Assembly: GCA_964016885.1 (NCBI GenBank)
Contig: OZ024743.1
Coordinates: 118,792,001 to 118,856,000, forward strand
Source of the DNA: Eledone cirrhosa
Lineage: Eukaryota
Direction: 5' to 3'
DNA: 64,000 nt
Below the pieces are notes generated by a model. That model made no database searches, had not been told where the DNA came from, and saw only the letters and a program-made list of their open reading frames with translations. Of the stretch, positions 896 to 11,619 are shown piece by piece (position 1 is the stretch's first letter; each line of letters opens with the position of its first letter). Position numbers and translations under genes: made by a program.

Positions 896-940
896 GCTGA
901 AAATGTTTCATCCATACCGTTGGGCAGGAATCATCAGAGC
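896..940 (-). ncRNA. Minimal hammerhead ribozyme-like motif, partly degenerate
   Basis: Minus strand reads gct-CTGATGA-t tcctgcc caac ggtatgga t-GAAA-cattt-TC-agc. Core boxes present, 3-bp stem I, stem II present, stem III imperfect. Confidence 0.55.
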
Positions 941-1481
941 TTAATAAACAAAAAACACAGAGCTGAGGATAAGCTCTACCAAGCTTAGTCACACAAACAA
1001 TTGGAATACAGTAGAGGGTAAAAATAGGGAGATCGGAGATGGCGAATAAGGAGAGAGTACATGTTTGGGTTGTTATTAGGCACTACAGCTAAATGCTAGG
1101 GTACAGGCAAATTTTTTCACAAGATACAGATGCAAGTGATGGCACACAAAAGCAAAAAGTATAAACAATGGTTAAAACATATAATAAAAAAGTAAAAGGA
1201 AGATAATATAAAGAGATAAAAAATAAAAAATAAATAAAAAAGATAAAAAATGTTTAAAAGGAATATAGAAAAAAAGAAAAAAAACAGAAAAAAAAGAGAA
1301 AAAGAAAAAAAGAAATAAGAAAAAAGAGAAAATTTCAAGCACTCTTTTACATATAACGGCTCTGTTCTCGTACATTGAGCTTATACAATATTGTCGAAAT
1401 ACGACAAGGTACATGTCTGTTTATGCACATACGCTCCGTGCTCTACGTAAATATATATATAGTTTTAATATAGAAGAGTTT

Positions 1482-1592
1482 CTACAGGACTAGAAATGTT
1501 TCATTCGTGAGAAATCATCAGGGACCACTACTTACTTGGACAGCCAGCTCCCTGATGATTTCTCACGAAACAAACAGTTCTAGTCCTATAGA
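1482..1592. repeat. ~43-bp-arm inverted repeat carrying a CTGATGA hammerhead-core-like motif in both orientations
   Basis: ctacaggactagaaatgtttcattcgtgagaaatcatcaggga ... tccctgatgatttctcacgaaacaaacagttctagtcctatag. Confidence 0.8.
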
Positions 1593-2166
1593 AGTGGGTA
1601 TGTATATAAATATAAAGTTATATATGTATGAATTTATATATATATATATGTGTGAGTGTATATGGGTGTGTGTACACACACACAAACACACACACACACA
1701 CACACACACACACACACACACACACATATATATATATGTGTATGTATATATATATATATATATACATGTATGTATATATATATATATATATATATATATA
1801 TATATATATATATATATATATATATGTATGTATATATATGTATGTATGTATATATATATATATATATATATATATATATATACATAACGAACAGCGGAGG
1901 ACACGCTTCGCACCTTTCCGACAGACAGCCCCCCCCCCCCCCCTCCACCCCACCCTCACCCCCACCCCCACCCCGGAAAAAACTTCCAGTTGATGGATGT
2001 GAATCCGAAATATATAGGGACAATTAAATCTCTCCCAAGGTAACTCTATCTCGTGTTGTTATTTTTATTTTTATCCTTTACGCTCTTTCCTACAGGAAGC
2101 TCCAACCTTTAAGGTTGTCTTTTTTCAGGGTATGTCAATATTTATTTATAAAACAAATCTGTATTG

Positions 2167-2232
2167 TATTTTATCTGATGAAAGCGCACCATAATTTGCC
2201 TTGGAGGCCCTTGAAATATGTATAATAAAATA
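2167..2232 (+). ncRNA. Minimal type I hammerhead ribozyme-like motif
   Basis: tattttat-CTGATGA-aagcgcacca..tggaggccctt-GAAA-tatgta-TA-ataaaata. Perfect 8-bp stem I, imperfect stem II, short near-palindromic stem III. Confidence 0.6.
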
Positions 2233-3556
2233 AATATGGTTTTATAAATAGTTTCCATTTGTTAATATATTGTATCTATCTATCTATCTATATATATATG
2301 TATATATATATATATATATATATATATATATATATATATATATATATATATATATATTTATTTATTTATTTATTTATTTATATATATATATTTATTTATT
2401 TATTTATTTATATATATATTTATATAGATACATAAATATACATGCATACATGGAAAAATATATATACACACATACTTTTATGTTTATATATTTACAAAGC
2501 TATATTTATTTATTTATATTTACTTATTGTTATTTACTGTCTTTTATACGTGAAAATATTTCCAGAAAATCCTGAACTCAAGACTTCAAAGATCTCTCTC
2601 AGCAGGGTATCAAATTGAAAAAAAAAGTTGTCAATGAACATGTTTGACGTTAGCAGAGTACAACATTCCTAAAAGCAGGGGCACTTCATAAACCTTAGCT
2701 CTATTTTAGAATAAGTCAAGATAAAGTTAGGGAGGAGGAAAAAAAAGGATAATTTTGGGAAAAGACATATATAAAATAACTGGCGAGAAAGAAAGGAAAG
2801 CAAAGGAAACCAATAAACGAAACACTACGATCATCCCTTTTTGAAGCTGCTTCTCCATAAATGTGGGCAACTATAAATGTACTCATATATGGAATGCTAC
2901 CCTTAAACATTATATAAACACACACATACAATCACACACGCATACACAAACACACACACTCATACATACACACACACACATATATATATATAGGATATAT
3001 TTATTAAAATAACAGCAATTCTTTGCTTAAACTTTAATCTGTGATTTTAATAAATATTTGCTCTACGGTTCTTATATATTTGATACATATTTATCCTTAT
3101 CGAGCCCTCTTTCGATTTTAGTCTTCAAATTTATTATTATTACTATATAGGATATATATATATATACATACATTTATATGTACCTCTCTCTATCGCTCTC
3201 TCTTTATATATATATATATATATATATACATATATATATATATATATATATATATATATATATATATATATATATATATATATATATATATAGTGTACGT
3301 GATTTAGTGGATTACTGTTGGTGGCACCAATATGAGCACTCGATGCACAGGCAGAAAGGGGGATGAACAAAAAGATAAATAATGAACAAAAAGATAAATA
3401 TATATATATATATATATATTATATATATATATTATATATATATTATATATATATAATATATATATATATATATATATTTAAATACGCACGTGTGTTTGTA
3501 TGATTTTCTTCTCATGTTCCCCCTTGTTCCTTCCTCTTCTCACTCTTTATCTTTCT

Positions 3557-10300: not shown

Positions 10301-10539
10301 TCCCGATTCTTCTAAACTTACCAGCTTTGTTTACACTTCTCTTGAACATGGACAACATTTATCATCGTGGTGTTATCCGGTGACTCGTTTTTTTGGCTCA
10401 GGTGGTTAATGGCTTCTTGACCGCCTTCTCAGTTTGTATGGCGTTTATAACCTATGTTTATTGCTCTGGTCTCTTTAGCCTATGGAGCGCTTGCCAGCAT
10501 GACTCGGAATTTGCGTTGCGTTCGCTGAATTTATATACA

Positions 10540-10719
10540 TAATTGTTTCTACTTTTGGCACAAGGCCAGCAATTACCCAGTGCATTACTGGTACTTTATT
10601 TTATCAACTGCGTAAGGATGAAATGCAAAGTAAACCTCGGCGGGATTTGAACCCAGAATGGAAAGGGCCGTAACTCCGTCCGTCAAAGCATGGCGTCCGA
10701 CCCTCTACCGATACTGCCA
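10540..10719 (-). mobile_element. tRNA-derived SINE, family 1
   Basis: Reverse-complement match to 7115-7300. Confidence 0.9.
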
Positions 10720-11135
10720 TTATATATATATATATATATATATATATATATATATATATATATATATATATATATATATATATATATATATATATATATA
10801 TATATATATATATATTATATATATATATATATATATATATATAAAAACAAATAACGAAACGAAATTAAATTTCGTTTCGTTTGTAACTCACTTTTGTATG
10901 ACTGACGCTTAAACAATTAAGTTAAAAATGTACATCCACATATGTATACTGAAATACTAGTATGCATATGAATACACACACGTATACATATGTAGATGTA
11001 CCAAGTTTTTCACTGGTCACTTTACTGTGAGTGTCCAGCTATTCTGTATGTAAACACACAGACAAACCGGTTTTTAGAGTCATACTGGTTTTTGAGGAAA
11101 CACCTTTCCTCTATTCTCCAGAAAGCCAGACAAGG

Positions 11136-11180
11136 AATATTGAACTAGTTTCGTTGTTGTTACAACTCATCAGCAATATT
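11136..11180 (-). ncRNA. Minimal type I hammerhead ribozyme with intact consensus
   Basis: Minus strand: aatattg-CTGATGA-gttg taacaa caac-GAAA-ctag-TT-caatatt. 7-bp stem I, G-C-closed stem II, palindromic stem III (aactagtt). Enclosed by attctccagaaag/ctttctggagaat arms. Confidence 0.85.
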
Positions 11181-11619
11181 TACCTATCTTCCGGCCTTTC
11201 TGGAGAATCGTAAAAGCACATATCGTTATATGCTTTTTCTATGAAAATTAGTAGTGGGCAGACTAATTTGCATAGAGCGTGAGTACGTACCGGTTCAACG
11301 GAGACGATAAAAACAAATATATATATATATATATACAAAATGTCAGCAGAAAATACATGTATATCGAACTGACAGCTTCATCTTCCCCTTTTCAACCATC
11401 TTTCTAATGTGCAATTTCGCACAATAAATTGATTTTGTACTTGTAATAACAGTTTGCCCAACAGATTGAAGAACAGCTCTATTAGTACGGTGCATGAGAC
11501 AAAATCAGAGACAAATACGTAAAAAAATCCGAAAAAAAACAAAACAAATGTCTTATTATGTAAAATGTGTATCAGGTTAACGCTGGTGAGATTGAAACAT
11601 TGAAAACATTCGGCTTAGT

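What the first reader, a model, noticed from the sequence alone, without database searches (positions are those of the whole stretch)
896..11208. Dense set of dispersed minimal hammerhead motifs in short modules near (TA)n tracts around a Penelope-like relic
Seen: CTGANGA..GAAA..UH cores at 896-940(-), ~1490-1524(-), 2167-2232(+), 3557-3597(+) and 11136-11180(-), weaker ones at ~6435-6472 and 7448-7478, and two more at 63.2 and 63.6 kb. Stem sequences differ between them, so several families are involved. Known: Penelope-like elements carry minimal hammerheads with a palindromic stem III that can act as dimers. Inference: a diverse population of non-autonomous ribozyme-bearing PLE derivatives (retrozyme-like) associated with (TA)n.
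Basis: partly seen in the sequence, partly recalled or inferred. Interest (0 to 1): 0.75.

Follow-up and report, generated by a model that had tools for sequence, protein, structure and literature searches.

The report
Penelope ends and retrozymes in TA-repeats
These predicted self-cutting RNA (hammerhead) motifs are real but typical of this genome, which holds about 200,000 more such core patterns than a control pattern: some are cut-short ends of Penelope-type jumping genes that land in TA repeats, and two families are protein-free tandem repeats whose insertions show the same two-fixed-end footprint, so they likely borrow those genes' copying enzyme.

Summary
Of nine named motifs, four are intact type I hammerheads (2167+, 11136-, 63175-, 63563+; none of 200 shuffles reached four), two keep the core but have broken stems, and three are decayed. 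All nine lie in repeated families. The window is not unusually dense: 6 core-pattern hits against 5.3 expected from 248,478 genome-wide (control 36,168). The modules are a mixture. The relic (4440-6490) is a Hydra-clade Penelope-like element (PLE), and the 896 module is the 5'-truncated end of a protein-coding Hydra family, so it is not non-autonomous. The 11136 and 63-kb modules are young non-LTR retrozymes (465/466- and 422-430-bp tandem units, 40,031 pattern matches, compensatory stems, dimer-only fold predicted for the first). In the 465-bp family, 26 of 28 arms end at two fixed sites, mostly into (TA)n, as do arms of intact Hydra PLEs here. That supports, but does not prove, PLE-driven target-primed copying. 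Mosaic variants within arrays argue against simple one-pass copying of a single circle. No cleavage or expression was tested. The scan found this system before on other DNA of this genome.

The parts
10841..11319 (-). Family A retrozyme, one 465/466-bp unit plus 13 nt, (TA)n on both sides; 3' end at the family's fixed site 302 nt after the predicted cleavage point
   Evidence: 40 of 40 scored hits 100% identical over 136 nt; arrays of 10 and 31 units; fold z = -11
11136..11180 (-). Intact type I hammerhead of family A: 7-bp stem I (+3 bp beyond a bulge), 5-bp stem II, palindromic ACUAGU stem III, U at position 17; predicted cleavage after 11143
63017..63812 (.). Family F retrozyme (422-430-bp unit, homologous to A), two-armed head-to-head insertion with intact hammerheads at 63175-63217(-) and 63563-63605(+)
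   Evidence: (I8)
849..1332 (-). Family B arm: 3' end (3' UTR/pLTR) of a Hydra-clade PLE, hammerhead at 896-940 with mutated stem III, ending at site 1 (+50)
1343..1455 (+). Family B second arm: tail with the bulged hairpin, ending at site 2 in (TA)n
1461..1594 (.). Family C head-to-head pair; both window arms broken (stem I lost on -, GAAA lost on +); family hammerhead has a 4-bp stem III and GUA site
2093..2275 (+). Family D copy with intact hammerhead 2167-2232 (8-bp stem I, near-palindromic stem III, GUA), ending at site 1 in a microsatellite; autonomy unresolved
3013..3150 (+). 3' tail of family K (family hammerhead core reads CAGAAGA); core absent from this copy; carries the bulged tail hairpin
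3481..3632 (+). Family G copy, decayed minimal hammerhead at 3557-3597 (GAAA box and stem I mutated)
3880..4085 (.). Family J head-to-head pair holding only the decayed 3' half of a hammerhead (GAAA-stem III-UC) plus the bulged tail hairpin
4440..6490 (+). Old 5'-truncated Hydra-clade PLE relic: linker and C-terminal GIY-YIG at about 4456-5290 (broken by stops and frameshifts), 1.2-kb 3' UTR, hammerhead remnant (3' half only) at 6435-6472
7432..7700 (+). Old family H copy with decayed hammerhead-like motif at 7448-7478; a second fragment lies at about 7038-7110(-)
8215..8300 (-).

Best explanation
The motifs are genuine hammerhead-pattern modules from about ten repeat families piled into (TA)n tracts: some are the truncated 3' ends of Hydra-clade Penelope-like retrotransposons, and two (11136 and 63 kb) are protein-free tandem retrozymes that likely use a PLE enzyme to insert. 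Shown: families, boundaries, tandem arrays, compensatory stems, two fixed 3' ends, two-armed shape, TA flanks, and intact 819-830-aa Hydra ORFs in the genome with the same footprint. Inferred mechanism: the GIY-YIG endonuclease nicks both strands of an AT repeat; each nick primes reverse transcription at one of two internal sites on the RNA (A: about +228/233 and +302 from the cleavage point; Hydra: +43-48 and +212-214); the two cDNAs run 5'-ward, stop at variable places and join head to head. For retrozymes the template must contain intact junctions (a circle made by dimer cleavage and ligation, or an uncleaved multimer), so copying runs through several units. The hammerhead is predicted to be inactive as a monomer (core sequestered) and active as a dimer through the ACUAGU palindrome. 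Most single window copies are dead-on-arrival or decayed.
For: Intact motifs vs shuffles. Genome counts 40,031 vs control 2 for the A/F pattern and 248,478 vs 36,168 for a loose core. Compensatory changes in 7 of 17 pairs over 21 distinct rows, 91% paired vs 30-50% for slid controls. A: 26 of 28 arms in 18 insertions end at two sites; 8 of 10 two-armed insertions have one end at each; 22 of 27 ends run into (TA)4. Hydra: all 12 terminal arm ends in 7 loci fall at two sites, 5 of 7 loci have one of each (L126 gave no new end, two rows that continue into the ORF not counted). Families B, C, D show the same two-site pattern. Hydra motifs RWR, DKT, CxCX5C, no CCHH, CxxC and CxH in the intact ORFs match PMC8557442 section 11. 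B links to a Hydra ORF and aligns with the intact Hydra pLTR and tail (score 80 vs 30 +/- 5, 0 of 200 shuffles). Both arms share locus-private variants in L006 and L019. Dimer cofold -32.4 vs 2 x -14.5 kcal/mol with both cores free. PLE protein nicks both strands of AT-rich DNA and starts at two internal RNA sites in vitro (PMC11167929).
Against: No sequence link between A or F and the one young Hydra family tested (144 and 93 of 200 shuffles as high), and A and F lack the bulged tail hairpin found in Hydra, B, C, D, J, K, so the partner enzyme is inferred from footprint only; Naiad and Neptune PLEs also favour (TA)n or microsatellites. The covariation comes mostly from two or three subfamilies, i.e. 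few independent events; pairs-with-change count did not beat the shuffle (219 of 500). Units within the 31-unit array carry 11 recurring, recombining variants, which one pass round one circle would not give. U17 in family A is a slow cleavage context (own knowledge), and only 1 of 9 Xenopus retrozyme dimers cleaved in vitro (bioRxiv 2026.07.22.740005). Samples were the best BLAST hits or first pattern hits, with +/-1.5-kb flanks, so arms containing the hammerhead are over-represented.
Confidence: 0.75

Rival explanations
1. Retrozyme arrays are copied from uncleaved multimeric read-through transcripts (or by template jumps among several RNAs), not from one circle; the hammerhead is not needed for insertion.
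For: Recurring mosaic variants inside arrays: 11 in the 31-unit array, three haplotypes in the 10-unit array, alternating 422/430 units in L136. Hammerhead mutants did not affect PLE insertion in vitro (PMC11167929). 0 of 28 arm 5' ends lie at the cleavage point (biased sample).
Against: All units and both arms of the 31-unit insertion share one five-variant haplotype, and L006/L019 arms share private variants, as a single template predicts; the unit folds into a very stable closed shape (z -12 as a circle); circles are abundant for other animal retrozymes (PMC7229834).
Confidence: 0.35
2. Long arrays arose after insertion by satellite-type unequal crossover from short 1-3 unit inserts.
For: A 5-nt deletion is shared by two adjacent units and variants recur with short periods in the 31-unit array; the route is discussed in bioRxiv 2026.07.22.740005.
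Against: Does not explain the fixed 3' ends, TA flanks or two arms; many insertions already hold 2-3.5 units.
Confidence: 0.3
3. A and F are moved by a PLE other than Hydra (Naiad or Neptune) or by a Hydra family not sampled.
For: No shared sequence or tail hairpin with the Hydra families fetched; cephalopod Naiads also prefer (TA)n (PMC8557442 supplement).
Against: Intact, 95-97% identical Hydra ORFs with the same two-site, two-arm footprint are present; Naiad footprints were not examined.
Confidence: 0.3
4. One reading: every module is a short non-autonomous, minimal-hammerhead PLE derivative.
For: True for A and F; no ORF hit beside B, C or D units in 13 loci of 5-9.5 kb, and one ORF hit downstream of the unit in 1 of 3 G loci.
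Against: B continues into a Hydra ORF after a further walk of about 2 kb, showing that such negative flanks mislead; 6435 belongs to the coding relic; C is not minimal.
Confidence: 0.1
5. Chance matches in AT-rich DNA.
For: Applies to single details only, e.g. the CTGATGA at 7081(-) and 8281(+), which are by-products of decay.
Confidence: 0.01

Closest known systems
Metazoan non-LTR retrozymes (Cervera and de la Pena 2020, PMC7229834; Li et al., bioRxiv 10.64898/2026.07.22.740005)
   Same: A and F: ORF-less tandem units with one type I hammerhead each, low GC, highly self-paired; A has a 1-bp stem III capped by a palindromic tetraloop like axolotl HHR_Amex1, F a U-U mismatch at the base of stem II like HHR_Amex2.
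   Different: A unit (465/466 bp) is slightly above the 150-450 bp range quoted; U at position 17; (TA)n targeting, two fixed internal 3' ends and two-armed shape are not described in the passages I read; no RNA evidence here; no pLTR homology found, unlike 24 of 57 Xenopus families that matched Repbase elements, nearly all PLEs.
Hydra clade of endonuclease-bearing PLEs, incl. Hydra-1_Obim (Craig et al. 2021, PMC8557442)
   Same: RWR/RWK, DKT, CxCX5C linker, C-terminal GIY-YIG without CCHH, CxxC and CxH, hammerhead in the pLTR, (TA)n target, inverted 5'-truncated partner.
   Different: Unit is 4.7 kb with a 2.2-2.9-kb 3' UTR versus 'generally <3 kb'; the young family's core reads CCGAAGA/CCGATGA (U4 to C); the window relic is 72-83% identical to its own copies and about 52% in protein to the young family.
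Minimal PLE hammerheads (Cervera and de la Pena 2014, PMC4209133)
   Same: Palindromic stem III for dimer formation, many variable families per genome, mostly single dispersed motifs from truncated PLEs, opposite-strand pairs 100-700 bp apart.
   Different: Only family G fits the minimal layout (extra nt after A9, 4-bp stem I, no loop 3); A, F, D have long stem I; C, J, K, L have a real stem III. Count here (about 212,000 excess cores) exceeds the 4,000-9,000 reported there and the 126,247 in axolotl, though the descriptors differ.
Poseidon PLE of green anole, in vitro (Frangieh et al. 2024, PMC11167929)
   Same: Two internal reverse-transcription start sites, AT-rich nicks on both strands, a tail between the two sites.
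   Different: Tail there is 30-40 nt and shown biochemically; here 56-170 nt and inferred from genomic ends, including on ORF-less RNAs.

Membership tests
Type I hammerhead ribozyme | CUGANGA and GAAA boxes with stems I and II and an NUH site | tested here: met
   4 of 9 named motifs; the other 5 fail in the window copy
Type I hammerhead ribozyme | Compensatory change in stems | tested here: met
   A/F alignment: 7 of 17 pairs change on both sides, 91% paired vs 30-50% slid; few independent events
Type I hammerhead ribozyme | Site-specific self-cleavage | not testable with these tools
   No assay; dimer-active, monomer-inactive fold only predicted for A
Minimal PLE hammerhead (Cervera 2014) | No or palindromic stem III, extra nt after A9, short stem I | tested here: inconclusive
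   Met by family G copies; palindrome met by A, F, D; not met by C, L, J, K
Non-LTR retrozyme (families A, F) | Head-to-tail repeats of a few hundred bp, one type I hammerhead per unit | tested here: met
   465/466 bp x10 and x31; 422-430 bp x5; A slightly above the quoted 150-450 bp
Non-LTR retrozyme (families A, F) | No ORF, GC below 50%, highly self-paired | tested here: met
   No ORF of 110 aa at 10841-11319 or in the F arms; no PLE protein hit in the units; GC about 36%; z -11 (A only)
Non-LTR retrozyme (families A, F) | Expressed as linear and circular RNA | not testable with these tools
   No RNA holder listed; contigs cannot show it
Non-LTR retrozyme (families A, F) | Target-site duplication when present | tested here: inconclusive
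   Flanks are microsatellite on both sides
Hydra-clade PLE (relic 4440-6490) | CxCX5C linker and C-terminal GIY-YIG without CCHH, with CxxC and CxH | tested here: met
   Window: CNCR..(third Cys mutated), CRLC, CPH; sister copies L064, L094, L096 keep the third Cys. Pfam gave no relevant hit
Hydra-clade PLE (relic 4440-6490) | RWK and DKT motifs in the RT region | tested here: inconclusive
   Relic is 5'-truncated; RWR and DKT are present in the related intact ORF L121
Hydra-clade PLE (relic 4440-6490) | Canonical hammerhead in the pLTR | tested here: not met
   Only the 3' half survives in the relic family; related Hydra families carry it, often with U4C. Read as decay, not as exclusion
Hydra-clade PLE (family B) | Hydra-type ORF upstream, pLTR hammerhead, (TA)n insertion | tested here: met
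   ORF-to-hammerhead colinear in 2 of 16 loci
Hydra-clade PLE | Placement in the RT tree | not tested
   No tree built
Non-circularly permuted hammerhead (type SGC/CSG/GCS, PMC10085705) | Core blocks in non-circular order | tested here: inconclusive
   0 hits in the window and 0.94 Mb of (partly overlapping) loci with a strict descriptor; descriptor may be too tight

The most novel reading that the evidence does not exclude
A Hydra-type PLE protein copies, in trans, a circular ribozyme RNA that shares no sequence with it: it primes both nicked strands of a (TA)n target at two fixed internal sites, rolls round one or several circles and leaves mirror-image arrays, while a U17, dimer-only hammerhead keeps the circle closed. 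With about 212,000 excess hammerhead cores (one per 14 kb), several with altered catalytic cores (U4C, U4A, U17), this genome would be the densest hammerhead habitat among the counts I saw in print and a ready test bed for retrozyme mobilisation.
Probability: 0.35. Interest if true: 0.72.

Novelty: new member of a known kind. Interest (0 to 1): 0.45.

Why it matters
That PLEs mobilise animal retrozymes is proposed (PMC7229834 Discussion; bioRxiv 2026.07.22.740005) but the mechanism is stated to be open. Here ORF-less units and intact PLEs in one genome leave the same two-site, two-arm, (TA)n footprint, which names exact start sites that can be tested with the existing in vitro PLE assay. It also shows that short hammerhead modules cannot be called non-autonomous without walking several kb upstream. 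The stretch itself is ordinary for this genome.

Tried and rejected
First scan used a wrong stem II offset and missed 11136; replaced. The repeat finder was swamped by microsatellites. Rfam: no gathering-level hit in 7 loci. Pfam found nothing relevant for the relic or the intact 830-aa ORF. I first read 5300-6500 as a minus-strand ORF; colinear copies show one plus-strand element. I first read family B as a 1.1-kb non-autonomous unit with LINE-1-type twin priming; rejected. A-to-I editing as a source of variants: A>G vs T>C 20:15 (A), 30:23 (F), 4:5 (D), none significant. Sequence link of A, F, C, D, G to the L121 pLTR and tail: none; relic tail 8 of 200. Bulged tail hairpin: descriptor drawn from these same tails after a lead from earlier notes; found in 9 of 17 stretches (Hydra x2, B x2, C 1 of 2, D 2 of 3, J, K; shuffles at most 2 of 200), absent from A, F, G, L. 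Permuted hammerhead: none. Sequencing runs: no RNA holder listed; contigs laid show presence only. Look-ups by sequence and near place in earlier findings were empty. Literature searches listed no paper devoted to cephalopod retrozymes; the library lacks most subscription journals, and supplements of PMC7229834, PMC4209133 and the preprint were not seen and could list them.
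Full report
Setting. The window is G000:C4:118792001-118856000 of a 3.0-Gb animal genome, probably a cephalopod (earlier scan notes say so; not tested here). It is rich in microsatellites.

Observation. A strict type I descriptor finds four intact hammerheads: 2167-2232(+), 11136-11180(-), 63175-63217(-), 63563-63605(+). Shuffles gave a mean of 0.085 and 0 of 200 reached four. A broader descriptor adds none in the window. Of the other five named motifs, 896 and 1490 keep both core boxes but have broken stems, 3557 has lost GAAA, 6435 keeps only the 3' half and 7448 is a decayed member of an old family. 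Every one lies in a repeated family. Genome-wide the loose pattern CTGAYGA-N12-32-GAAAY occurs 248,478 times against 36,168 for the reversed control: one per 12 kb, an excess of about 212,000. The window has 6 (5.3 expected); the first 12 kb has 4 (1.0 expected, p 0.019, region chosen after the fact) and is where TA runs crowd. So the motifs are real and the window is average.

Families A and F are retrozymes. The 11136 motif sits in a 479-bp insert (10841-11319) between (TA)n runs. All 40 scored hits are identical over 136 nt. Elsewhere the unit forms head-to-tail arrays of 465/466 bp, of 10 and 31 units. The 63-kb pair is a two-armed insertion of a homologous 422-430-bp unit (A vs F score 169 vs 32). 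A pattern covering both matches 40,031 times, control 2. Across 21 distinct rows, 7 of 17 pairs change on both sides and 91% of cells pair, against 30-50% for slid structures; the number of such pairs does not beat the shuffle (219 of 500) and the changes reflect few subfamilies. A further array carries its own compensatory swap in stem II. The A unit folds far better than shuffles (z -11 linear; z -12 circular). As a monomer the core is sequestered; two copies co-fold with both cores free and the ACUAGU palindrome as stem III. This matches the non-LTR retrozymes of PMC7229834 (passages and Discussion read).

Insertion footprint. In 18 independent A insertions (the window, 8 from best BLAST hits, 9 from pattern hits; overlapping loci merged), 26 of 28 arms end at two sites, +300-303 (14) and +225-233 (12) from the cleavage point; 8 of 10 two-armed insertions have one of each; 5' ends scatter and none is at the cleavage point, with the caveat that sampling required a hammerhead. 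22 of 27 ends (one at a locus edge left out) run into (TA)4 versus 2.5-6.5% background. F shows sites near +219 and +275, less cleanly because of an internal TA run and diverged subfamilies.

The relic and its kin. 4440-6490 is one plus-strand element whose broken ORF end has the linker and GIY-YIG motifs of the Hydra clade (PMC8557442 passages, section 11 and supplement hits). A protein search found relatives with open frames up to 830 aa. Fetched copies are 95-97% identical, form 4.7-kb partial tandems, and carry a pLTR hammerhead with a CCGAAGA core and CAATTG palindrome; the 6435 remnant is its counterpart. All 12 terminal arm ends of 7 such loci fall at +43-48 or +212-214, and 5 of 7 have one of each, all in TA or TC/TA repeats. 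This is the same footprint as family A, and agrees with both-strand nicking and two internal start sites shown in vitro for a Poseidon PLE (PMC11167929, parts 1-2 of 4 read).

Not all modules are non-autonomous. Family B (896) aligns with the intact Hydra pLTR and tail. No ORF lay beside it in six loci of 5-8 kb, but a further walk reached a Hydra GIY-YIG end about 2.9 kb upstream, colinear to the hammerhead in 2 of 16 loci and to the upstream UTR in a third. A and F lack that hairpin and any sequence link to the Hydra family tested.

Circle or multimer. For a single template: both arms share locus-private variants in L006 and L019, and all units of the 31-unit insertion share one haplotype. 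Against one pass round one circle: 11 variants recur in mosaic fashion in that array, three haplotypes recur in the 10-unit array, and F units alternate 422/430. Post-insertion exchange, multimeric templates or jumps between circles could each explain this. No A-to-I signature was found. No RNA holder was listed.

Comparison and verdict. Hammerheads in PLE repeats, dispersed single motifs, opposite-strand pairs and dimer dependence are described in PMC4209133 (parts 1-2 of 4 read); retrozyme origin from pLTRs in bioRxiv 10.64898/2026.07.22.740005 (parts 1 and 3 of 5). PMC10085705 (passages) describes permuted hammerheads, not found here. The finding is a set of new members of two known kinds. 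Its value is the shared footprint, which makes PLE mobilisation of retrozymes testable, and the very high load. Earlier scan notes (unchecked AI notes) report the same system, including 422- and 467-bp units, on other DNA of this genome. Interest 0.45.

Noticed in passing
window 8215-8300 (-): Copy of a hammerhead family with a full stem III; a 4-nt inversion of the loop between 3-bp inverted arms destroys the catalytic box and creates a spurious CTGATGA on the opposite strand at 8281.
   Followed up: partly
L121:2615 and related Hydra loci (L100, L103, L163): Young, ORF-intact Hydra families carry hammerheads with C at core position 4 (CCGAAGA/CCGATGA); family K carries A there (CAGAAGA; L071, L121:8510). 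Activity unknown.
   Followed up: partly
window 1353-1375, 4010-4040, 3059-3105; L121:2704-2740: Bulged hairpin (RCTC stem, two-pyrimidine bulge, GAGY) a few nt after start site 1 in Hydra, B, C, D, J, K tails, with ACTC/GAGT to GCTC/GAGC swap; candidate RT recognition signal.
   Followed up: partly
window 4303-4438(+), about 7120-7290(-), 10540-10720(+): Copies of a very abundant SINE-like repeat, one inserted beside the Hydra relic and one abutting the (TA)62 run before family A.
   Followed up: no
G000:C1:5738093-5752746 (L204, L205): 31-unit family A array plus short inverted arm; all units carry a compensatory stem II swap; mosaic recurring variants.
   Followed up: yes
L178:1197-1759: A family A insertion sits in a (CAT)n repeat instead of (TA)n.
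   Followed up: no
window 33870-50940 and 19300-22050: Several non-LTR retrotransposon copies with endonuclease and RT frames, including a 718-aa RT frame at 39694-41850(-); 16708-17340 looks like another RT end.
   Followed up: no
run X4, record 9: One 496-nt contig covers the family A unit as a closed cycle; runs X4 and X5 carry other organism labels. Run type is unknown, so no inference on RNA.
   Followed up: no
window about 54790-54900 and 26920-27030: Further PLE-type tails (J-like and K-like ends) beside TA runs outside the finding.
   Followed up: no
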